IMG/VR virus record: IMGVR_UViG_2751185959_000007
DNA: 13,881 nt
Source: a virus
Lineage: Duplodnaviria; Heunggongvirae; Uroviricota; Caudoviricetes
Reading direction: 5' to 3' (one strand)
The notes beneath the pieces are model-generated. The model saw only the letters and a list, made by a program, of their open reading frames with translations, was not told the DNA's origin and did no database searches. A program made the position numbers and the translations under genes. This document shows, one piece after another, positions 1 to 6,856 of this stretch. The first letter of the stretch is position 1. Every line of letters starts with the position of its first letter.

Positions 1-93
1 GAGTTCGGGGTCGAGGTAATCCCCCAGAGAAGTCAGTGGGTTACGCAGAGAATCGTAACGGGATACCAGATCAAGAGCCTGTCCAATGTGCAT
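1..93 (-). CDS. Partial ORF, only the first 31 codons visible (MHIGQALDLVSRYDSLRNPLTSLGDYLDPEL...), product unknown
   Basis: ATG at 93..91 on minus strand, open to window edge; no Shine-Dalgarno; the + strand frame 1..174 is also open, so strand and reality are uncertain. Confidence 0.25.
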   Translation of the reverse strand, partial: MHIGQALDLVSRYDSLRNPLTSLGDYLDPEL

Positions 94-96
94 AAA

Positions 97-130
97 AGAA
101 TCCGGAAACAAGTGAGCGTTTCCGGATTCT
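97..130. repeat. Perfect inverted repeat with 13-bp arms (AGAATCCGGAAAC / GTTTCCGGATTCT) and 8-nt loop; on the minus strand it is followed by TTTT and then the ATG at 93
   Basis: Direct base-by-base complementarity of 97..109 with 118..130. Confidence 0.6.
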
Positions 131-696
131 TACACAGCCACTGGATCGGTCAACTGATCCTTAACTGATCGGCATTACCCCGAAATGGAGCCGCCTTTCT
201 GAACAGATAACCCGCTGCGCCGTTTGTGTGTGTGATCCCAAACATAAGCACGGGGATGATAGCCGCTATCAGGCTGGTGGGCAATGCAATCAGTCTGGTT
301 CAGTGCGTTGCCATAACTGCGAAGTTCTCTCCTTTGATGAGTATTCTTTAAGGTACTTCTCAAGGGCAAAAGAACACGGCGCGAATCGTTCTGATTCATG
401 CTCTTTCTTTCTGCGTCGTCTTTTTCGTGCAGGTGATGTTTTTTCGGTTGATTCTTCGTTGGTCATTGTGTGCGCCTGTAAAGCAATGCGCCGTAGTACC
501 TCACACCACGGCGCTGATAGTTTTTATCCTTTGGGTTCTATGCCGCGTTGCTGTAATTCTTTGCGGATTATTCGCTTTATCCAGGCAGCAAGAGAATCAT
601 CGCCGTCCTGTTGTTGTGCCTTTTCCATCTTTTCCCGTAAGTCAGGATCTAAACGGAACTGGAACGGAGGATTACCACGCCTTTCGTTTTTGTGTG

Positions 697-726
697 TTGA
701 CACGTTAATTACACCTCAGGTAATGT
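697..726 (+). promoter_or_regulatory. Candidate sigma70 promoter for the rightward small-gene/primase operon: consensus -35 TTGACA (697..702), weak -10 TAATGT (721..726)
   Basis: Perfect -35 hexamer with 18-bp spacer to a 3/6 -10; position upstream of first RBS-bearing ORF at 833. Confidence 0.3.
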
Positions 727-731
727 ATTTA

Positions 732-752
732 TGTGTAGTGACACATTACACA
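732..752. promoter_or_regulatory. Inverted repeat TGTGTA-N9-TACACA, candidate operator just downstream of the putative promoter
   Basis: 6-bp perfect arms at 732..737 and 747..752; contains GTGACAC, also present in the 11874..11908 repeat array. Confidence 0.35.
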
Positions 753-832
753 CAATCAACACAAAAAGCAAAGCCCCGCACTGTAGGAGCAGTAACGGGG
801 CTTCTAACCAACAACGTAAACTAGGAGCCGTT

Positions 833-1033
833 ATGGTTGCCGTAAATCATATACCACACCTTGTACACACACAAACGGCCTTTGTGTGGCGTTTTCTGGC
901 ACTGAGTGCCGGAGAATCCCAAATCATCCACGTAACCGCTTGGACGGAACGCGAAGCGCGTAGCCGTTGCCCGTCCGGTTGTGTTGCTGTATTCGCCGCC
1001 CGTATTCGTCAGGGGGAAACCTATGCACAATAA
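833..1033 (+). CDS. Hypothetical small protein (66 aa)
   Basis: Strong SD AGGAG at 823..827 with 5-nt spacer to ATG 833; internal start within track ORF 731..1033; stop overlaps next gene start. Confidence 0.4.
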   Translation: MVAVNHIPHLVHTQTAFVWRFLALSAGESQIIHVTAWTEREARSRCPSGCVAVFAARIRQGETYAQ

Positions 1034-1244
1034 AACCACACCGAACGCAGCAGCCGCCGCACTCACTACGCTGATGCACGCGCTTATTGATATTGAATGC
1101 ACGGCAGAGCTTGCGCAGGGAGAAGAACAGAAAGACCGGACACAGTTCGCCCTGGAATGTATCCGATACATCGCAACGCGGTCACTGAATGACGCTAAAA
1201 ATATTCTTGTTGCCGATTGTGAAAATGGGGGGGGTTATGCGTGA
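1023..1244 (+). CDS. Hypothetical small protein (73 aa)
   Basis: ATG 1023 preceded by GGGGGAAA; internal start within track ORF 981..1244; overlaps the next ORF by 8 nt (ATGCGTGA), suggesting translational coupling. Confidence 0.5.
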   Translation: MHNKTTPNAAAAALTTLMHALIDIECTAELAQGEEQKDRTQFALECIRYIATRSLNDAKNILVADCENGGGYA

Positions 1245-1389
1245 TGATCGTTTTAATTCCCTGAAACAGGAATTTTCCGGCGTTCCTGATGATGCGGCTG
1301 ATGCGCTTTCGTCAATGCCAGAACTTATTAGAGCGGCTTTTTTCTTACTTTCCACGAGAGAATATAAATCAACGGGCTTGATGTACTGA
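1237..1389 (+). CDS. Hypothetical small protein (50 aa)
   Basis: ATG 1237 preceded by GGGGGG run; internal start within track ORF 1189..1389. Confidence 0.4.
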   Translation: MRDDRFNSLKQEFSGVPDDAADALSSMPELIRAAFFLLSTREYKSTGLMY

Positions 1390-1458
1390 ATATCGCCGCC
1401 GATTATGCTGATTTCGTGACAGAGGTTATTTTAAGAAAAACGACGGACGGGGATTAAT

Positions 1459-1692
1459 ATGCGTGATATTTACCACGAAACAATAGACCGCGCATTTCTT
1501 GCACTTTCTCACAGTGAAAACATGCTGGAAATATTGCGCATATGGCTTGAAACACTTGGCGACAATGAACGCGACAAACAAAAATCAAGAATTGCCACGG
1601 CATTAATAACGCTTCTTGAGCCTGTAATAATGGAACTGCAAGAAATAGATCTATTGCACGACAGATATAAAGAACAACACACCGGAGAATAA
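1459..1692 (+). CDS. Hypothetical protein (77 aa)
   Basis: Track ORF; GGGGA-type SD upstream of ATG 1459; same strand, tight spacing with neighbours. Confidence 0.55.
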   Translation: MRDIYHETIDRAFLALSHSENMLEILRIWLETLGDNERDKQKSRIATALITLLEPVIMELQEIDLLHDRYKEQHTGE

Positions 1693-1697
1693 AAATA

Positions 1698-1997
1698 ATG
1701 AAACTTAAATATTCTGGCTTAACTGCCAGTGGCAACACTCACCCTAAATTTACGCGCGGTGATATTTACCGCGACCAGTACGGCGGCATGGTAACGATTA
1801 AAGGCGTGGCAGAACGGCGCATCACCTACCGCCGTGAAGGTTACGAATATGATTGCGTGATGCCTGTTTATCAATTCCGGCGTGATTTCACGCTGGTACA
1901 GGCAGCGCCCCGCAGTAAACCAACCAGCAGGGAGAAAGCACGCGCCAATATTCAGGAAATAAAAAAGATGCTTAACGTATTCAGGGGTAAAAAATGA
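1698..1997 (+). CDS. Hypothetical protein (99 aa) immediately upstream of, and translationally coupled to, the primase gene
   Basis: SD GGAGAA at 1684..1689; stop TGA overlaps primase ATG (ATGA at 1994..1997). Confidence 0.6.
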   Translation: MKLKYSGLTASGNTHPKFTRGDIYRDQYGGMVTIKGVAERRITYRREGYEYDCVMPVYQFRRDFTLVQAAPRSKPTSREKARANIQEIKKMLNVFRGKK

Positions 1998-3742
1998 AAC
2001 TGGCACCGAACGTAAAAAAACAGCCACGCGGAATAAAACACAAAGACACAGAGGTAATTATCTTTGCGGGTAGTGATGCCTGGTCGCACGCGAAACAATG
2101 GCAGGAGCAGGATGGCCCCGCATCCGGCGATAATGTGCCGCCTGTGTGGCTTGGGCCAAATCAGCTTGCCGAACTTGATGCACTGAAAATTGTTCCGGAT
2201 GGAAAAAAACGCGTAAGGCTGTACCAGGCCGGAGAACTGGATTTGGTGGAGACCAAAAAGATTGGTCAGAAGCTGGCGGCGGCAGATATTCAGGACGCAA
2301 ATTTTTACCCCGAAGGAATGCACGTCCAGAAGTGTGAAAACTGGCGGCGCTATCTGAATGCTGAGCGTGAAAATATTGCCGCAGGGCTTACCATGCCGGA
2401 GCAGAAAAATACGCAACTGGCACAAATGGCAGACAGTGAGCGCGCGCAGCTGCTTGCCGAGCGCTTTGATGGCGTTTGTGTGCATCAGGAAAGTGAAATC
2501 GTTCACGTATGGCGCGGCGGGGTATGGTGTCCGGTCAGCACAATGGAACTTAGCCGCGAAATGGTGGTGATCTATTCAGAGCACAGGGCCACTTTCAGCA
2601 AGCGCGTAATCAATAACGCCGTGGAAGCGTTAAAAGTTATTGCCGAACCAATGGGCGAGCCGTCCGGCGATTTGCTGCCGTTCGCCAATGGTGCGCTTGA
2701 CCTGAAAACGGGGGAATTTTCCCCGCACACGCCGGAGAACTGGATCACCACGCACAACGGCATTGAGTACACGCCACCAGCACCAGGGGAGAACATCCGC
2801 GATAACGCGCTAAACTTTCATAAATGGCTTGAGCACGCAGCCGGAAAAGACCAGCGCAAGATGATGCGTATATGTGCCGCGCTGTACATGATTATGGCGA
2901 ACCGGTACGACTGGCAGATGTTTATTGAGGCCACCGGAGACGGCGGGAGCGGTAAAAGTACATTCACACACATAGCCAGCCTTCTGGCAGGGAAACAGAA
3001 CACGGTAAGCGCTGAAATGACATCGCTTGATGATGCTGGTGGACGTGCGCAGGTTGTCGGGAGTCGTCTTATCGTCCTGGCTGACCAGCCGAAATATACA
3101 GGCGAAGGAACGGGCATCAAGAAAATCACGGGCGGTGACCCCGTGGAAATTAACCCGAAATACGAAAAGCGTTTCACGGCTGTAATCAGGGCGGTGGTGC
3201 TGGCGACCAACAATAACCCGATGATATTCACCGAACGGGCCGGAGGTGTGGCACGTCGTCGCGTGATTTTCCGTTTCGACAATATCGTTAGTGAGGCCGA
3301 AAAAGACAGGGAGCTACCGGAAAAGATTGCGGCTGAAATCCCTGTCATTATCCGCCGATTGCTGGCGAACTTTACCGACTCTGAGAAAGCACGGGCTTTA
3401 CTACTGGAACAGCGTGACGGTGATGAAGCTCTGGCAATAAAGCAACAGACGGATCCGGTTATTGAGTTTTGCCAGTTCCTGAATTTTCTGGAGGAAGCAC
3501 GCGGCCTGATGATGGGCGGCGGTGGCGATTCAGTGAAGTACACGACCAGAAACAGCCTTTACCGCGTCTATCTGGCGTTTATGGCGTACGCAGGCAGGAG
3601 CAAACCGCTAAACGTAAATGACTTTGGCAAGGCTATGAAGCCAGCCGCGAAAGTTTACGGACATGAATATATTACGCGGAAAGTTAAGGGAGTAACGCAG
3701 ACTAACGCAATAACAACAGACGAGTGCGACGCGTTTTTATAA
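1994..3742 (+). CDS. Replication protein: P4-alpha-family primase/helicase (D5_N / SF3 helicase-type NTPase), 582 aa
   Basis: Long ORF with Walker A motif GDGGSGKST and downstream hydrophobic-D Walker B-like LIVLAD; overall resemblance to phage/plasmid primase P4-family C-terminal region; iteron array directly downstream. No canonical zinc-finger/TOPRIM primase motif recognised in the N-terminal 300 aa. Confidence 0.88.
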   Translation: MKLAPNVKKQPRGIKHKDTEVIIFAGSDAWSHAKQWQEQDGPASGDNVPPVWLGPNQLAELDALKIVPDGKKRVRLYQAGELDLVETKKIGQKLAAADIQDANFYPEGMHVQKCENWRRYLNAERENIAAGLTMPEQKNTQLAQMADSERAQLLAERFDGVCVHQESEIVHVWRGGVWCPVSTMELSREMVVIYSEHRATFSKRVINNAVEALKVIAEPMGEPSGDLLPFANGALDLKTGEFSPHTPENWITTHNGIEYTPPAPGENIRDNALNFHKWLEHAAGKDQRKMMRICAALYMIMANRYDWQMFIEATGDGGSGKSTFTHIASLLAGKQNTVSAEMTSLDDAGGRAQVVGSRLIVLADQPKYTGEGTGIKKITGGDPVEINPKYEKRFTAVIRAVVLATNNNPMIFTERAGGVARRRVIFRFDNIVSEAEKDRELPEKIAAEIPVIIRRLLANFTDSEKARALLLEQRDGDEALAIKQQTDPVIEFCQFLNFLEEARGLMMGGGGDSVKYTTRNSLYRVYLAFMAYAGRSKPLNVNDFGKAMKPAAKVYGHEYITRKVKGVTQTNAITTDECDAFL

Positions 3743-3756
3743 TTTTTTGTAATTGC

Positions 3757-3981
3757 TGTCTACCCTGTCTACCTGAGTAAAGAAAAATACATTTAATTCA
3801 GTGCATTAAGTTAGGTAGATAGCCTTTTTTTACTGTCTACCCACTATCTACCCTCTCTACCTGATTTTACCTGAATCAGACAGGGAGGTAGACACGGGGT
3901 AGATAGTGGATAAAAGCACTCTACCCCGCTGAAAGCAGCGCCATTACTGGCATGAGGGCCACTAAGGTAGATAAGGTAGAC
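3757..3981. repeat. Iteron array, probable origin of replication: at least 11 copies of the core TCTACC (extended (C)TGTCTACC / CTATCTACC), forward at 3757, 3766, 3834, 3846, 3856, 3920 and reverse (GGTAGA) at 3814, 3887, 3898, 3966, 3975
   Basis: Counted directly in sequence; forward copies cluster on the left, reverse copies on the right, with an AT-rich stretch (3775..3812) between; located immediately 3' of the replication gene as in SaPI and P4 replicons. Confidence 0.8.
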
Positions 3982-4030
3982 AAGGGGAGGCACAACTCAA
4001 AACTTTTTAAACGAGGGGGTAAAAATAAAT

Positions 4031-4309
4031 ATGCACACTTCAGGGAAATTTAATAAATCATTCAAAAAACGCAGAGACAGAACAGAACCGAAATATCGCG
4101 CGTTAGACATGACAGAGCACGCTTTAAAGGTGGCAATCAGAACGATAGACCGCCACGCGGGGGAAGGATACGCGAAAGCACATCCCGAACTGATAAGCGC
4201 ATTCATGACCACGACGGCGGCAAATTTTGCCACGCTGACAGAGCGGGAGATTGCCGAAGCGGAACAGGTAACAACAATCAACGTTAAAACCGGAGAGGTG
4301 GAATCATGA
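4031..4309 (+). CDS. Hypothetical protein (92 aa), first gene of a three-gene accessory operon
   Basis: Track ORF; GAGGGGG upstream of the ATG; stop overlaps next start (ATGA). Confidence 0.55.
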   Translation: MHTSGKFNKSFKKRRDRTEPKYRALDMTEHALKVAIRTIDRHAGEGYAKAHPELISAFMTTTAANFATLTEREIAEAEQVTTINVKTGEVES

Positions 4310-4611
4310 GCGAACCAAAATTTGGTGAAAAATTTTACAAGCACAACGGACGGATCACGATTCTGCAAATAAGCGCAGCTACACCAGGCTGGTGGGTTGA
4401 AACAGACGAAGGATCCTCACCCGTGGCATCATGGGAGCTTTGTGTGCTTAGTTACCCTGACCGCGATGTGTATCAGGATATTCTGCCTGTGATATCCACT
4501 GACAAAGGCATGAAACCCGTAGACATCAAAAACATGGGGTTTCAGTGCGTAATGCTCACTGAAAAAATGATGGAAGAGATGAAAAAGAACAATGCCGGAT
4601 CGCTTCACTGA
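4306..4611 (+). CDS. Hypothetical protein (101 aa)
   Basis: Track ORF; SD GGAGAGGTGG upstream; coupled to neighbours. Confidence 0.6.
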   Translation: MSEPKFGEKFYKHNGRITILQISAATPGWWVETDEGSSPVASWELCVLSYPDRDVYQDILPVISTDKGMKPVDIKNMGFQCVMLTEKMMEEMKKNNAGSLH

Positions 4612-4620
4612 GGTGGCAAT

Positions 4621-4782
4621 ATGACAGCACAAATTGCAGCTTACGGGCAGCTGGTGGGCGACCCGCTGGTAAAACAGAGCAGCAAGGGCACACCGGAGCC
4701 GCCAACGGAGAACTACGCAGACCTGAGAAATGCAGTAAATCGCACTTACGCAGACATGGGGCTGAGCAAATTAGCAGAGTAG
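4621..4782 (+). CDS. Hypothetical small protein (53 aa)
   Basis: ATG 4621 with SD GAGGTGG at 4610..4616; followed by a strong intrinsic terminator. Confidence 0.45.
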   Translation: MTAQIAAYGQLVGDPLVKQSSKGTPEPPTENYADLRNAVNRTYADMGLSKLAE

Positions 4783-4804
4783 GAATATCAGAACCACACC
4801 ACGC

Positions 4805-4830
4805 AGCCGGAGCAATCCGGCTTTTTGTTA
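4805..4830 (+). terminator. Rho-independent terminator: 7-bp stem AGCCGGA / TCCGGCT with GCAA tetraloop, then T-tract
   Basis: Stem 4805..4811 / 4816..4822, loop 4812..4815, T-run 4822..4826 then GTTATTTTTT. Confidence 0.7.
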
Positions 4831-4871
4831 TTTTTTGTAAATTATTTGTTCGTGGTTGTTCCACGTTGTTC
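4826..4871. repeat. Helically phased direct repeats: TGTTA, TGTAA, TGTTC, TGTTC, TGTTC starting at 4826, 4836, 4847, 4857, 4867 (10 to 11 bp period); last unit reads TGTTCAC
   Basis: Counted in sequence; candidate protein-binding array (terminase, replication or regulator). Confidence 0.5.
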
Positions 4872-4947
4872 ACTGAGCGGATCGGCATATTTTACCCGAA
4901 CTGAATCATGATTATTCTCGCCCGTGGTGCCAGGACGCTGGGGCCAC

Positions 4948-4995
4948 TTTCCCGCCTGTTAATGTGCTCGCCAATATTCATTACCAGGCGGGAAA
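4948..4995. repeat. Large dyad: TTTCCCGCCTGTTAATG / CATTACCAGGCGGGAAA (16 of 17 complementary; outer 11 bp perfect) with 14-bp spacer
   Basis: Base-by-base complementarity of 4948..4964 with 4979..4995. Confidence 0.6.
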
Positions 4996-5048
4996 ACGAT
5001 CGGTGCGATTACTGATTTCCTTATGAAAAACGGTTGAGTGTTTGCCGC

Positions 5049-5085
5049 GTCCTGGAGTTCCTTACTTAACCCCAGGACTTTTTTT
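5049..5085 (+). terminator. Terminator-like hairpin (GTCCTGG-N16-CCAGGAC) followed by T7, ending immediately before the capsid ATG at 5086
   Basis: Stem 5049..5055 / 5072..5078, T-run 5079..5085. The 16-nt loop is long for a canonical terminator; may be a regulated attenuator or a 5' UTR structure. Confidence 0.4.
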
Positions 5086-6243
5086 ATGCAGAGAATAATC
5101 GAATTACGCCAGCAGAAAACCGCCATTAAAAATCAGATGCGCGACATGCTGGAGAACGCTGAAAAAGAAAACCGCAGTCTTAACGATGCTGAGGGCGCAA
5201 AATTTGACGAATTACGCGCTAAAGCTGAATCCCTCGATAAAGACATTTCCCGCCTTGAAGCCATTGCAGACGAAGAGCGCAGCAAGCCAGGTAAAAGCAG
5301 CCAGACCACTGACCCCGCAGAACTACGTAACTACATTCTGACCGGTGAAACCCGCGCATTAAGTACAGGCGTTCCCGCTGATGGTGGTTATACCGTTATC
5401 CCTGAACTGAACACCGAAATCATGCGAATGCTGGCGGATGAATCCACCATGCGTCGCATCTGTACCGTGAAGAAAATCAGCAGCAACGAGTTTAAGCAGC
5501 TTGTTTCCGCTGGCGGTGCGACCGTTAACCACGGTGAAGAGGGTAAGGCACGCGAACAGACCAGCACCCCGCAGATTAACGAGGTGAGCATTAAGCTGTA
5601 TCCGGTCTATGCGTACCCGCGCACCACACAGGAAATCGTGGATTTTTCCGATGTGGACATCCTTTCATGGCTGACGGGTGAGATTGGCGACACCTTCACG
5701 GAAACCGAAGAAAGCGATCTGGTTGTGGGCGACGGTGACAAAAAAGCAAAAGGTTTTTTATCCGTACCCCGTGCAGAGAAGAACGACAAAGAGCGTGATT
5801 TTGGTACGTTGCAGGTAATTAAACCTTCCGAATCTCTGGCGTGGACATCTGCGGACCCGCTGATCGACCTGAAATTTGCATTACGTAAAAAATACCGCAA
5901 AAACGCGGTCTGAGTGGTTAACTCCACGACGGCGGCAAAACTTCAGAAGGTGAAGAACGCGAACGGTGATTATATCTGGCGCGACCGTTTACAGGCGGGT
6001 GATCCTGATACGTTGCTGGGCCTTCCGGTCGAATATCTGGAGTTTATGCCTGATAACGTTATTGCCCTGGGTGACTTCAAACGCGGTTACTACATTGTTG
6101 ATCACGAAACAGGTGTTCGCACCAGACCGGACAACCTGACAGAACCAGGATTCATCAAAATTTTCACGCAAAAATATTTAGGCGGTGGCGTGGTGGATTC
6201 GAACGCGATCAAGATTCTGGCACTGCCGGAAGACGACGATTAA
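5086..6243 (+). pseudogene. HK97-family major capsid protein interrupted by an in-frame TGA at 5911..5913 (N-terminal 275 codons 5086..5910; C-terminal 109 codons 5914..6243; 385 residues if the stop is read through)
   Basis: Track ORFs 5038..5913 and 5914..6243 are in the same frame, separated only by TGA. N-terminus MQRIIELRQQ... is a coiled-coil delta-domain-like region. Context NAV-TGA-VVNSTT is consistent with an ancestral TGG (Trp) codon. Confidence 0.85.
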
Positions 6244-6253
6244 CAGCATACAG

Positions 6254-6281
6254 AAGGGGCTAAAAAGCCCCTTTAGTGTTT
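6254..6281 (+). terminator. Hairpin (8-bp stem AAGGGGCT / AGCCCCTT, loop AAAA) with weak T-rich tail directly after the capsid stop; candidate partial terminator
   Basis: Stem 6254..6261 / 6266..6273, followed by TAGTGTTTT. Confidence 0.45.
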
Positions 6282-6297
6282 TATGGGTGAAAAAATT

Positions 6298-6855
6298 ATG
6301 AAGAGTATGGAAATCCGGTCATCGGAAATCACCACCAGCGGAGCCGGTACGCTGACGGGCTACGTTGTTCGCTGGGATAAGCTTTCAGAACTGTTATGGG
6401 GTGAGTTTTACGAAAAATTCCAGCGGGGGGCGTTTACTGAATGGCTTGCGGCGGGTAATGACGTTCGCGGCCTGTATGAGCATGACCACAGCATGTTACT
6501 GGGGCGCACCCGTTCCGGCACGCTGAAACTGGAAGAGGACGAAACAGGGTTACGCTTTGAACTGACCCCACCGGATACCAGTACAGGGCGCGACGTTATC
6601 GAACTGGTTAAGCGTGGGGACATCTCGGGGATGAGCTTTGGCTTTCGCTCCCGTAAGGATGTATGGGATACCACAACAGATCCATGCGTGCGCACCGTGC
6701 TGGTGGCGGAACTGTACGAAATTACCGTTACATCGGTACCGGCTTACCCCGATTCCGGCGTGGAGCTGGCCCGCCGTTCCCTGTATGAGCAGCACCCCGA
6801 AAAAATGCCGCGTGCGGATAATCGCCGCTGGTGGGCGGATTTAGCGGGGGTGTGA
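6298..6855 (+). CDS. Prohead (head maturation) protease, HK97 family; start may alternatively be 6283 or 6307
   Basis: Sequence resembles HK97-type prohead proteases (…GYVVRWDK…GAF…); sits between capsid and portal genes; stop overlaps portal start. Confidence 0.85.
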   Translation: MKSMEIRSSEITTSGAGTLTGYVVRWDKLSELLWGEFYEKFQRGAFTEWLAAGNDVRGLYEHDHSMLLGRTRSGTLKLEEDETGLRFELTPPDTSTGRDVIELVKRGDISGMSFGFRSRKDVWDTTTDPCVRTVLVAELYEITVTSVPAYPDSGVELARRSLYEQHPEKMPRADNRRWWADLAGV

Positions 6856-6856
6856 T

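What the first reader, a model, noticed from the sequence alone, without database searches (positions are those of the whole stretch)
5086..6243. Single in-frame TGA splits an otherwise full-length capsid gene
The two track ORFs 5038..5913 and 5914..6243 share a frame and are separated only by TGA at 5911..5913. Reading through gives a 385-residue HK97-size capsid protein. The context (NAV-stop-VVNSTT) looks like a TGG-to-TGA change at a tryptophan. Every other head gene appears intact, so this is either a very recent inactivation, a sequencing error, or a capsid made at low level by natural UGA readthrough, which would reinsert the presumed ancestral Trp.
Basis: partly seen in the sequence, partly recalled or inferred. 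Interest (0 to 1): 0.65.

Follow-up and report, generated by a model that had tools for sequence, protein, structure and literature searches.

The report
Dead capsid gene in Shigella satellite
The stop codon is real: a single G-to-A change turned an invariant tryptophan codon of a phage-satellite capsid gene into TGA, and because thousands of Shigella flexneri assemblies share it alongside a second packaging-gene lesion, it is an ordinary fixed pseudogene in a decaying mobile element.

Summary
TGA at 5911-5913 is the only interruption of a 385-codon HK97-fold capsid gene (5086-6243). All relatives examined have TGG (Trp276) there.

The gene belongs to a capsid-forming phage-inducible chromosomal island (cf-PICI) of the EcCIEDL933 type, which lies next to phoQ in Shigella flexneri. 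With Trp restored, the protein differs at six residues from the solved EcCIEDL933 capsid protein (PDB 9GYI).

It is not a sequencing error. The exact 275-aa and 109-aa fragments each occur on at least 1000 public contigs, and seven of seven sampled loci carry the TGA. None of 5426 complete E. coli genomes has it, while 339 have the TGG version.

The statement that every other head gene is intact is wrong. A 97-bp deletion, also in all seven loci and absent from E. coli, removes the start codon and upstream region of the small terminase gene. In this window an IS4 end also abuts the island's regulatory side.

Nothing suggests programmed recoding. There is no hairpin downstream of the UGA and no Rfam hit, and intact homologues carry a plain Trp codon there. 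Trace UGA readthrough could not rescue an island that lacks a terS start.

Verdict: a fixed nonsense pseudogene in a degrading satellite. Low interest.

The parts
5086..6243 (+). Major capsid protein gene of the cf-PICI (HK97 fold, 385 codons), now a pseudogene
   Evidence: Translation. PF05065 matches residues 100-378 in one stretch. With Trp restored, six residues differ from PDB 9GYI, the EcCIEDL933 capsid protein. 98.6-98.9% nucleotide identity to genes annotated 'phage major capsid protein' in 361 E. coli genomes.
5911..5913 (+). Premature TGA at codon 276, derived from TGG (Trp) by G to A at 5913
   Evidence: W276 is invariant in all 120 aligned sequences. A 32-mer with TGA matches 0 of 5426 E. 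coli genomes; the same 32-mer with TGG matches 339. TGA is present in 7 of 7 S. flexneri-type loci.
5914..6243 (+). Orphaned 3' part of the capsid gene (109 codons, most of the A-domain and the C-terminal strands). Public records annotate it as a separate 'bacteriophage protein'.
6283..6855 (+). Prohead protease (Peptidase_S78), intact
6857..8068 (+). Portal protein, intact
8065..8403 (+). Head closure/completion protein, intact
8400..8696 (+). Head-tail connector protein, intact
8696..9136 (+). HNH endonuclease of the packaging module, intact
9348..9354 (+). Junction of a 97-bp deletion: the single remaining copy of the 7-bp direct repeat CCCCGCC. The deletion removed the terS start codon, its first seven codons and the 77 bp upstream.
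   Evidence: Alignment to L001 and L003. Repeat positions and size. The junction is in 7 of 7 S. flexneri-type loci and in 0 of 5426 E. coli genomes.
9349..9684 (+). Small terminase (P27 family, Terminase_4) remnant. Residues 8-118 are 100% conserved, but the native start is gone; the first possible start is GTG 9373.
9668..11329 (+). Large terminase, intact (TTG start, as in the E. coli orthologue)
1994..3742 (+). Island replication protein (D5_N/primase family), intact
1..177 (-). End of an IS4 element abutting the island's regulatory region. The integrase and alpA that other S. flexneri loci have to the left are not in the window.
   Evidence: IS4 transposase annotation. (position 178 corresponds to L005 2730, downstream of int and alpA).
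12421..13881 (-). Chromosomal phoQ, flanking the island

Best explanation
The window comes from a Shigella flexneri chromosome and holds most of a capsid-forming phage-inducible chromosomal island (cf-PICI) of the EcCIEDL933 type, inserted between roxA and phoQ. Its major capsid gene was inactivated by one G-to-A transition (TGG Trp276 to TGA). The change arose in an ancestor of the sampled S. flexneri strains and is now fixed there. Translation ends at codon 275. The product keeps the N-terminal scaffolding region and part of the HK97 fold but lacks most of the A-domain and the C-terminal strands, so it cannot build the T=4 shell. The same lineage also lost the start of terS to a 97-bp deletion between 7-bp repeats, and individual strains add further damage (IS4, IS1, a split terL). 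The island is therefore a stranded satellite decaying under relaxed selection, as is usual for mobile elements in Shigella. Shown here: the mutation, its ancestral state, its distribution and the second lesion. Inferred: loss of capsid function and of mobility.
For: The mutation and its ancestral state are shown. W276 is invariant in 119 homologue representatives of 66-99% identity from Escherichia, Citrobacter, Salmonella, Morganella, Proteus, Xenorhabdus and Photorhabdus. The solved EcCIEDL933 capsid chain, PDB 9GYI, also has W there, and the capsid of the Rhodobacter gene transfer agent has Phe.

The identity of the element rests on its gene order: (int-alpA in sister loci)-primase-capsid-protease-portal-head closure-connector-HNH-terS-terL, with no tail genes, next to phoQ. 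That is the order described for proteobacterial cf-PICIs, whose prototype is EcCIEDL933 (10.1101/2022.09.08.507074).

The mutation is not an error and not private to one strain. The exact 275-aa and 109-aa products are each on at least 1000 contigs and are named S. flexneri. The index lists the 275-aa product in 3556 collection blocks. Seven of seven sampled loci have the TGA, including two that differ at two other sites in the gene and one from a gut metagenome assembly. TGA is absent from 5426 complete E. coli genomes, while 339 have the same 32-mer with TGG. In the species-representative genome set, only an S. flexneri chromosome matches the 50-mer carrying the TGA.

The 97-bp deletion of the terS start is shared by all seven loci and is absent from E. 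coli. Knocking out each gene of the EcCIEDL933 packaging module abolished transfer, except one hypothetical gene whose loss only reduced it severely. Later decay is visible as IS4 in this window and as IS1 plus a split terL in L007.

A weak hint of relaxed constraint: the Shigella branch carries 3 non-synonymous or nonsense changes against 4 synonymous, while four E. coli alleles differ at 3 non-synonymous and 25 synonymous codons (Fisher p = 0.08).
Against: All other structural and packaging genes are still full-length and 96-100% identical in protein to their E. coli orthologues. That could be read as continued selection, but it is equally expected if the lesions are young relative to the neutral decay rate, because S. 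flexneri strains are very close to each other. Loss of function was not measured. Some UGA readthrough by tRNA-Trp is expected in enterobacteria (general knowledge), so a trace of full-length protein cannot be excluded. Only seven loci were read at the DNA level, so I could not establish what fraction of all S. flexneri lineages carry the TGA.
Confidence: 0.9

Rival explanations
1. Functional low-level UGA readthrough: tRNA-Trp reads the UGA, restores Trp276 and supplies enough full-length capsid protein for the island to make particles. The stop would then act as an expression throttle.
For: Readthrough would restore exactly the ancestral residue. All the other capsid-assembly genes are intact. 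UGA is the leakiest stop codon in E. coli and its relatives (general knowledge; phage Qbeta makes its A1 protein this way).
Against: No homologue of 119 uses a stop here; all encode Trp. There is no stimulatory structure downstream (MFE z = -0.68) and no Rfam match. The base after the stop is G, whereas enhanced natural UGA leakiness is associated with a following A (from memory, not tested). A T=4 shell needs 240 subunits, and percent-level readthrough in the presence of an excess of truncated subunits is unlikely to support assembly. The same lineage lacks the terS start, and packaging-module knockouts abolish transfer, so capsids could not be filled even if made.
Confidence: 0.04
2. Sequencing or assembly error: the true sequence is TGG.
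For: It is a single-base difference from all the E. coli orthologues.
Against: The identical truncated products are on at least 1000 contigs each, from many independent submissions (NCBI, ENA, Logan), and the index lists the 275-aa product in 3556 collection blocks. Seven of seven loci read at the DNA level have the TGA. The site is not in a homopolymer run.
Confidence: 0.01
3. A split or domesticated capsid. In one version the 275-aa fragment, which keeps the scaffolding-like N-terminus, is retained because it interferes with assembly of HK97-like phages and so acts as a defence. In another, the two fragments are both made, by termination at the UGA and reinitiation at the adjacent GUG (UGAGUG), and work together.
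For: The stop and a GTG are directly adjacent. The fragment allele is extremely conserved and widespread in S. flexneri. Satellites are known to interfere with helper capsid assembly (background in 10.1101/2022.09.08.507074).
Against: Conservation within S. flexneri is explained by the low diversity of the species. There is no Shine-Dalgarno sequence before GTG 5914. The split lies inside a single domain. EcCIEDL933 with an intact capsid gene does not interfere with its helper phages. No other lineage shows a comparable split. The co-occurring terS deletion and IS insertions point to general decay.
Confidence: 0.04
4. Selenocysteine insertion at the UGA.
For: An in-frame UGA in an otherwise intact gene.
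Against: Homologues have Trp here, not Cys or Sec. There is no significant hairpin 3' of the UGA. No RNA family matches at gathering score anywhere in the window.
Confidence: 0.005

Closest known systems
EcCIEDL933 (CP-933C), the prototype capsid-forming PICI of E. coli O157:H7 EDL933 (10.1101/2022.09.08.507074; capsid structure PDB 9GYI, 10.1101/2025.02.11.637232)
   Same: It has the same gene order and content: primase, capsid, protease, portal, head closure, connector, HNH, terS and terL, with no tail genes. With Trp restored, the window's capsid protein differs from 9GYI at only six residues. O157:H7 genomes carry the capsid gene at 98.6% nucleotide identity.
   Different: The window's copy has TGA in place of Trp276 and a 97-bp deletion of the terS start. 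It also has an IS4 end on its regulatory side and, in this strain group, an additional deletion of about 340 bp upstream of the capsid gene. It is therefore expected to be immobile, whereas EcCIEDL933 is transferred by helper phages HK106 and HK446.
Pseudogenes and degraded prophages or islands in Shigella genomes (reductive evolution with IS expansion; general knowledge, not tested against a specific paper here)
   Same: Point nonsense mutation, short deletion between direct repeats and IS insertion all occur in one non-essential mobile element and are fixed across the species.
   Different: Nothing of substance. This is simply a case in a cf-PICI rather than in a prophage or a metabolic gene.
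Phage Qbeta A1 protein, a minor capsid protein made by natural UGA readthrough with Trp inserted (general knowledge)
   Same: An in-frame UGA in a capsid gene, with Trp as the residue that readthrough would insert.
   Different: In Qbeta the stop is the conserved natural end of the coat gene and the extension is an added domain. Here the stop interrupts a single fold at a position where every relative has a Trp codon, so it is a lesion and not a design.
HK97 gp5 major capsid protein (HK97 fold)
   Same: Pfam PF05065. The EcCIEDL933 protein superposes on HK97 gp5 at about 1 A RMSD and has the same delta-domain cleavage motif (paper text).
   Different: The satellite protein has an extra connector loop at residues 227-248 and forms T=4 rather than T=7 shells. 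HK97 gp5 was not retrieved by sequence search at E <= 0.001.

Membership tests
HK97-fold major capsid protein (Pfam PF05065 Phage_capsid) | Full-length match to the family profile above the curated threshold | tested here: met
   With Trp restored: 208.1 bits against a cut-off of 24.2, residues 100-378 covering profile positions 1-278 of 280 in one stretch.
HK97-fold major capsid protein (Pfam PF05065 Phage_capsid) | An uninterrupted reading frame encoding the whole fold | tested here: not met
   TGA at codon 276 inside the domain. By descent it is a member, but it is a pseudogene.
HK97-fold major capsid protein (Pfam PF05065 Phage_capsid) | Close relative with an experimentally solved capsid structure | tested here: met
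   PDB 9GYI chain B, 385 aa, E = 2.5e-253, aligned over residues 1-385. Described as the T=4 EcCIEDL933 capsid in 10.1101/2025.02.11.637232.
Capsid-forming PICI (cf-PICI), proteobacterial type | Packaging operon in the order capsid-protease-portal-head connectors, then hnh-terS-terL | tested here: met
   Window ORFs and Pfam assignments match the order stated in 10.1101/2022.09.08.507074.
Capsid-forming PICI (cf-PICI), proteobacterial type | No tail genes; island size about 15 kb | tested here: met
   Nothing lies between terL (plus a 93-aa ORF) and phoQ in the window. In sister loci the span from int to the last island ORF is about 14 kb.
Capsid-forming PICI (cf-PICI), proteobacterial type | PICI-type int, alpA and replication (primase/rep) genes at the left | tested here: inconclusive
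   The primase is present and intact in the window. Int (409 aa) and AlpA (PF05930) are present in sister S. flexneri loci L005, L009 and L010. In this window the island is cut by IS4 at position 177/178, so they are not visible here.
Capsid-forming PICI (cf-PICI), proteobacterial type | Helper-phage induction, production of small island-encoded capsids and transfer | not testable with these tools
   Shown experimentally only for EcCIEDL933 and a few others. Predicted to be lost here because of the capsid and terS lesions.
Programmed stop-codon readthrough or selenocysteine recoding site | The stop codon is conserved at the site in homologues | tested here: not met
   All 119 homologue representatives, and 339 E. 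coli genomes at the DNA level, encode Trp/TGG.
Programmed stop-codon readthrough or selenocysteine recoding site | A stimulatory RNA structure (SECIS or readthrough hairpin) immediately 3' of the stop | tested here: not met
   The 65 nt from the UGA fold at -13.1 kcal/mol, z = -0.68, and 51 of 200 shuffles fold at least as well. No Rfam family reaches gathering score.

The most novel reading that the evidence does not exclude
The most novel reading not excluded is that S. flexneri retains the 275-aa N-terminal capsid fragment, possibly together with the 109-aa fragment reinitiated at the adjacent GUG, because it acts as a dominant-negative decoy against HK97-like phages that assemble related capsids. 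That would make a satellite pseudogene into a domesticated anti-phage factor. A weaker version is that percent-level Trp readthrough still yields occasional functional satellite capsids.
Probability: 0.04. Interest if true: 0.6.

Novelty: already known. Interest (0 to 1): 0.12.

Why it matters
It matters little beyond annotation. In S. flexneri genomes the two adjacent 'bacteriophage protein' ORFs next to phoQ should be annotated as one pseudogene: the capsid gene of an EcCIEDL933-type cf-PICI. The island should be regarded as immobile, because both the capsid gene and terS are damaged. That is useful when cf-PICIs are counted in surveys, since the family's papers list S. flexneri as a host. 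It also gives a small natural example of how a phage satellite decays after being stranded in a host-restricted pathogen. The TGA and the 97-bp deletion junction are absent from 5426 complete E. coli genomes, so they could serve as lineage markers for S. flexneri.

Tried and rejected
1. Selenocysteine or programmed readthrough. Folding the 65 nt from the UGA gave no significant structure, Rfam gave no hit in the window and homologues have Trp. Rejected.

2. Two normally separate genes. Pfam gives a single-domain match, PDB 9GYI is a single chain, and 119 homologues are all single proteins. Rejected.

3. Sequencing error. Rejected on the counts of exact products and the seven loci.

4. The same terS truncation in E. 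coli CE10. The longest contig listed for the 103-aa TerS has the length of the CE10 chromosome (5,313,531 bp). The RefSeq record, however, has the full 118-aa terS, and the deletion junction is absent from all complete E. coli genomes. The 103-aa call in CE10 is probably an alternative start choice in an older annotation.

5. An independent W276 stop in E. coli. Two E. coli-type 275-aa N-terminal fragments exist in the protein collection, but they are labelled 'partial' and sit on 3-kb contigs, so they are contig-end truncations and not stops.

6. The position of the cf-PICI cos site. I looked for it in the founding paper to judge whether the 97-bp deletion removes it, but the text does not give it.

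7. Relaxed selection on the Shigella branch. The test had too few substitutions: 3 non-synonymous against 4 synonymous, versus 3 against 25 in E. coli, p = 0.08. Suggestive only.

Full report
**1. The observation**

The window reads ...AAA AAC GCG GTC TGA GTG GTT AAC TCC ACG... around 5911-5913. ORFs 5038..5913 and 5914..6243 are in one frame and are separated only by this TGA. Translating 5086-6243 gives 385 codons with a single internal stop at codon 276, in the context KNAV*VVNSTT. With Trp at the stop, Pfam Phage_capsid (PF05065) matches residues 100-378 as one stretch covering profile positions 1-278 of 280 (208 bits, E = 2.4e-61). The stop therefore lies inside a single HK97-fold domain. 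The real start is ATG 5086, as annotated in the E. coli orthologues, not GTG 5038.

**2. The ancestral state**

Megablast of 5000-6300 finds the gene in 361 of 5426 complete E. coli genomes at 90-99% identity, always annotated as one 'phage major capsid protein'. Base-by-base comparison with two of them shows that codon 276 differs only at position 5913: A in the window, G in E. coli, that is TGA versus TGG.

A search of 5.8 billion protein clusters returned 671 homologues. The 119 full-length representatives listed (66-99% identity; Escherichia, Citrobacter, Salmonella, Morganella, Proteus, Xenorhabdus, Photorhabdus) all have W at this column, within the conserved motif KYR(K/R)NA(V/T)W(V/L)MNS. 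The Rhodobacter gene transfer agent capsid (PDB 6TB9) has Phe at the aligned position.

**3. What the gene belongs to**

- **Gene content of the window.** It holds a DUF4222 ORF, a D5/primase-family replication protein (1994-3742) and two small ORFs. These are followed by capsid (5086-6243), prohead protease (6283-6855), portal (6857-8068), head closure (8065-8403), head-tail connector (8400-8696), HNH (8696-9136), a 60-aa ORF, terS (remnant, ends at 9684), terL (9668-11329) and a 93-aa ORF. Chromosomal phoQ follows on the minus strand at 12421-13881. There are no tail genes.
- **Complete copies.** In E. coli and in other S. flexneri assemblies the complete element lies between roxA and phoQ and begins with a tyrosine integrase and an AlpA-type regulator.
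- **Family.** This is the architecture defined for proteobacterial capsid-forming PICIs (cf-PICIs), whose prototype is EcCIEDL933 of E. coli O157:H7 (10.1101/2022.09.08.507074).
- **Solved structure.** With Trp restored, the protein differs at only six residues (2, 117, 155, 276, 379 and 382) from PDB 9GYI chain B (E = 2.5e-253). The depositors describe 9GYI as the EcCIEDL933 capsid: a T=4 shell of 240 subunits with an HK97 fold plus a connector loop at residues 227-248 (10.1101/2025.02.11.637232).
- **Effect of the stop.** Codon 276 falls just after that loop. The 275-aa product keeps the N-terminal scaffolding (delta) region, N-arm, E-loop and part of the P-domain and G-loop, but lacks most of the A-domain and the C-terminal strands. 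This last point is inferred from the domain order given.

**4. Where the window comes from and how widespread the stop is**

A 50-mer spanning the TGA has one exact match in the species-representative genome set, an S. flexneri chromosome. Window 178-13881 is 100% identical to an S. flexneri chromosome locus (L011, CP004057.1).

The exact 275-aa N-terminal product and the exact 109-aa C-terminal product are each recorded on at least 1000 contigs (the counter's ceiling), with source names that are all S. flexneri, including strain 301. The gene-position index lists the 275-aa product in 3556 blocks of the collection. Seven loci were read at the DNA level, from six genome assemblies and one gut-metagenome assembly. 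All have TGA at codon 276, including two (L007, L009) that carry the E. coli-like base at two other sites in the gene. The mutation therefore predates diversification within the sampled S. flexneri.

By contrast, a 32-mer centred on the TGA matches none of 5426 complete E. coli genomes. This test requires an exact 28-mer, so it is specific to the base. The same 32-mer with TGG matches 339 genomes. The intact version of the Shigella allele (Q2, W276, A379) is not present among about 15 billion proteins. Sequencing error is excluded, and 'very recent' should be replaced by 'fixed in the lineage'.

**5. Are the other genes intact?**

Mostly, but not all.

- **Intact genes.** tblastn with the proteins of an intact E. 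coli island shows full-length matches at 96-100% identity for protease, portal, head closure, connector, HNH and terL, with no stops or frameshifts. The primase is also full-length, at 91% identity.
- **terS.** It matches only from residue 8. Alignment shows a 97-bp deletion between two copies of the 7-bp repeat CCCCGCC, one copy of which remains at 9348-9354. The deletion removed the terS ATG, its first seven codons and the 77 bp upstream. The first in-frame start now available is GTG 9373, with no evident ribosome-binding site. The junction is present in all seven S. flexneri-type loci and in no complete E. coli genome.
- **Why that matters.** In EcCIEDL933, individual knockouts of the packaging-module genes abolished transfer, except for one hypothetical gene whose loss only reduced it severely. 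So the Shigella island has two independent lesions, each expected to be disabling.
- **Strain-specific damage.** Window positions 1-177 are the end of an IS4 element that abuts the island downstream of where int and alpA lie in sister loci. The window and L011 lack about 340 bp upstream of the capsid gene, lost between two copies of a terminator-like hairpin repeat, and with it a 74-aa ORF. Locus L007 has an IS1 fragment and a split terL.

**6. Recoding hypotheses**

The 65 nt starting at the UGA fold no better than shuffled sequence (-13.1 kcal/mol, z = -0.68). No Rfam family reaches its gathering score anywhere in the window. No homologue has a stop at this site.

From general knowledge, natural UGA suppression by tRNA-Trp in enterobacteria is at most of the order of a percent and is favoured by a following A. 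Here the next base is G. This point is recalled from memory and was not tested. A trace of full-length protein is therefore possible, and it would indeed carry the ancestral Trp. But 240 subunits are needed per particle, truncated subunits would be in large excess, and terS has no start. Readthrough is not a plausible functional mechanism here.

Reinitiation at the adjacent GTG 5914 (UGAGUG) could in principle yield the 109-aa fragment. There is no Shine-Dalgarno sequence upstream and no precedent for a split HK97 fold among the homologues.

**7. Mechanism and verdict**

The best-supported account has four steps.

1. An EcCIEDL933-type cf-PICI was integrated between roxA and phoQ in an ancestor of S. 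flexneri.
2. A G-to-A transition at 5913 created W276*.
3. A slipped or illegitimate recombination between 7-bp repeats deleted the terS start.
4. Both lesions became fixed, and further IS-mediated and repeat-mediated damage is accumulating strain by strain.

This is the ordinary fate of a non-essential mobile element in Shigella, whose genomes are known for pseudogene and IS accumulation (general knowledge). Substitution counts give only a weak hint of relaxed constraint: 3 non-synonymous or nonsense against 4 synonymous changes on the Shigella branch, versus 3 against 25 among four E. coli alleles (Fisher p = 0.08). Confidence in the pseudogene reading is about 0.9.

**8. Comparison with what is known, and novelty**

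The element is a member, now defective, of the published cf-PICI family. The founding paper already lists S. flexneri among species with such elements. The gene is a pseudogenised orthologue of the structurally solved EcCIEDL933 capsid protein. Public S. flexneri records already carry the two halves as adjacent ORFs. Nothing here departs from known kinds.

The only non-excluded unusual reading is retention of the N-terminal fragment as an anti-phage decoy, or functional readthrough. There is no positive evidence for either, and I put the two together at about 4%. Interest is low, at 0.12.

Noticed in passing
window 9302-9373 (junction at 9348-9354): A 97-bp deletion between two copies of the 7-bp direct repeat CCCCGCC removes the terS start codon, its first seven codons and 77 bp of upstream DNA. 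It is shared by 7 of 7 S. flexneri-type loci and is absent from 5426 complete E. coli genomes. Whether it also removes the island's cos site is unknown.
   Followed up: yes
window 1-177: The end of an IS4 element, with the transposase start on the minus strand, abuts the island at 177/178. That point lies downstream of where int and alpA sit in other S. flexneri loci. The window does not show whether this is a simple insertion or an IS-mediated rearrangement or deletion.
   Followed up: partly
window 4804-4826: One copy remains of a terminator-like hairpin repeat (CAGCCGGAGCAATCCGGCTTTTT). Other S. flexneri loci (L004, L005) and E. coli (L003) have two copies about 340 bp apart, flanking a 74-aa ORF just upstream of the capsid gene. 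The window and L011 have lost that segment.
   Followed up: partly
L007 (CP026810.1) 3719-4012 and 12582-14242: This S. flexneri strain shows further decay of the same island: an IS1 transposase fragment in the regulatory region, and terL split into 371-aa and 183-aa ORFs.
   Followed up: no
proteins P0018, P0180 and P0181 (E. coli alleles of the capsid fragments): A 109-aa E. coli-type C-terminal fragment starting at the same GTG is annotated on 17 contigs. Two E. coli-type 275-aa N-terminal fragments also exist, but they are flagged 'partial' on 3-kb contigs. These may be contig breaks, or upstream frameshifts in the nearby A-runs, rather than a second W276 stop.
   Followed up: partly
window 4612-5085, compared with L001 4751-5444: The region between the replication genes and the capsid gene is mosaic. 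Some E. coli islands (L001, L012) carry full SSB and PerC-family regulator genes here. The window, like E. coli L003, has only short remnants of both, together with two different small ORFs (92 and 101 aa).
   Followed up: partly
window 5090 and 6221: Two further Shigella-specific non-synonymous changes lie in the capsid gene (P2Q and E379A). Neither is seen in the four E. coli alleles compared or in PDB 9GYI. They are consistent with relaxed constraint, but they are too few to test.
   Followed up: partly
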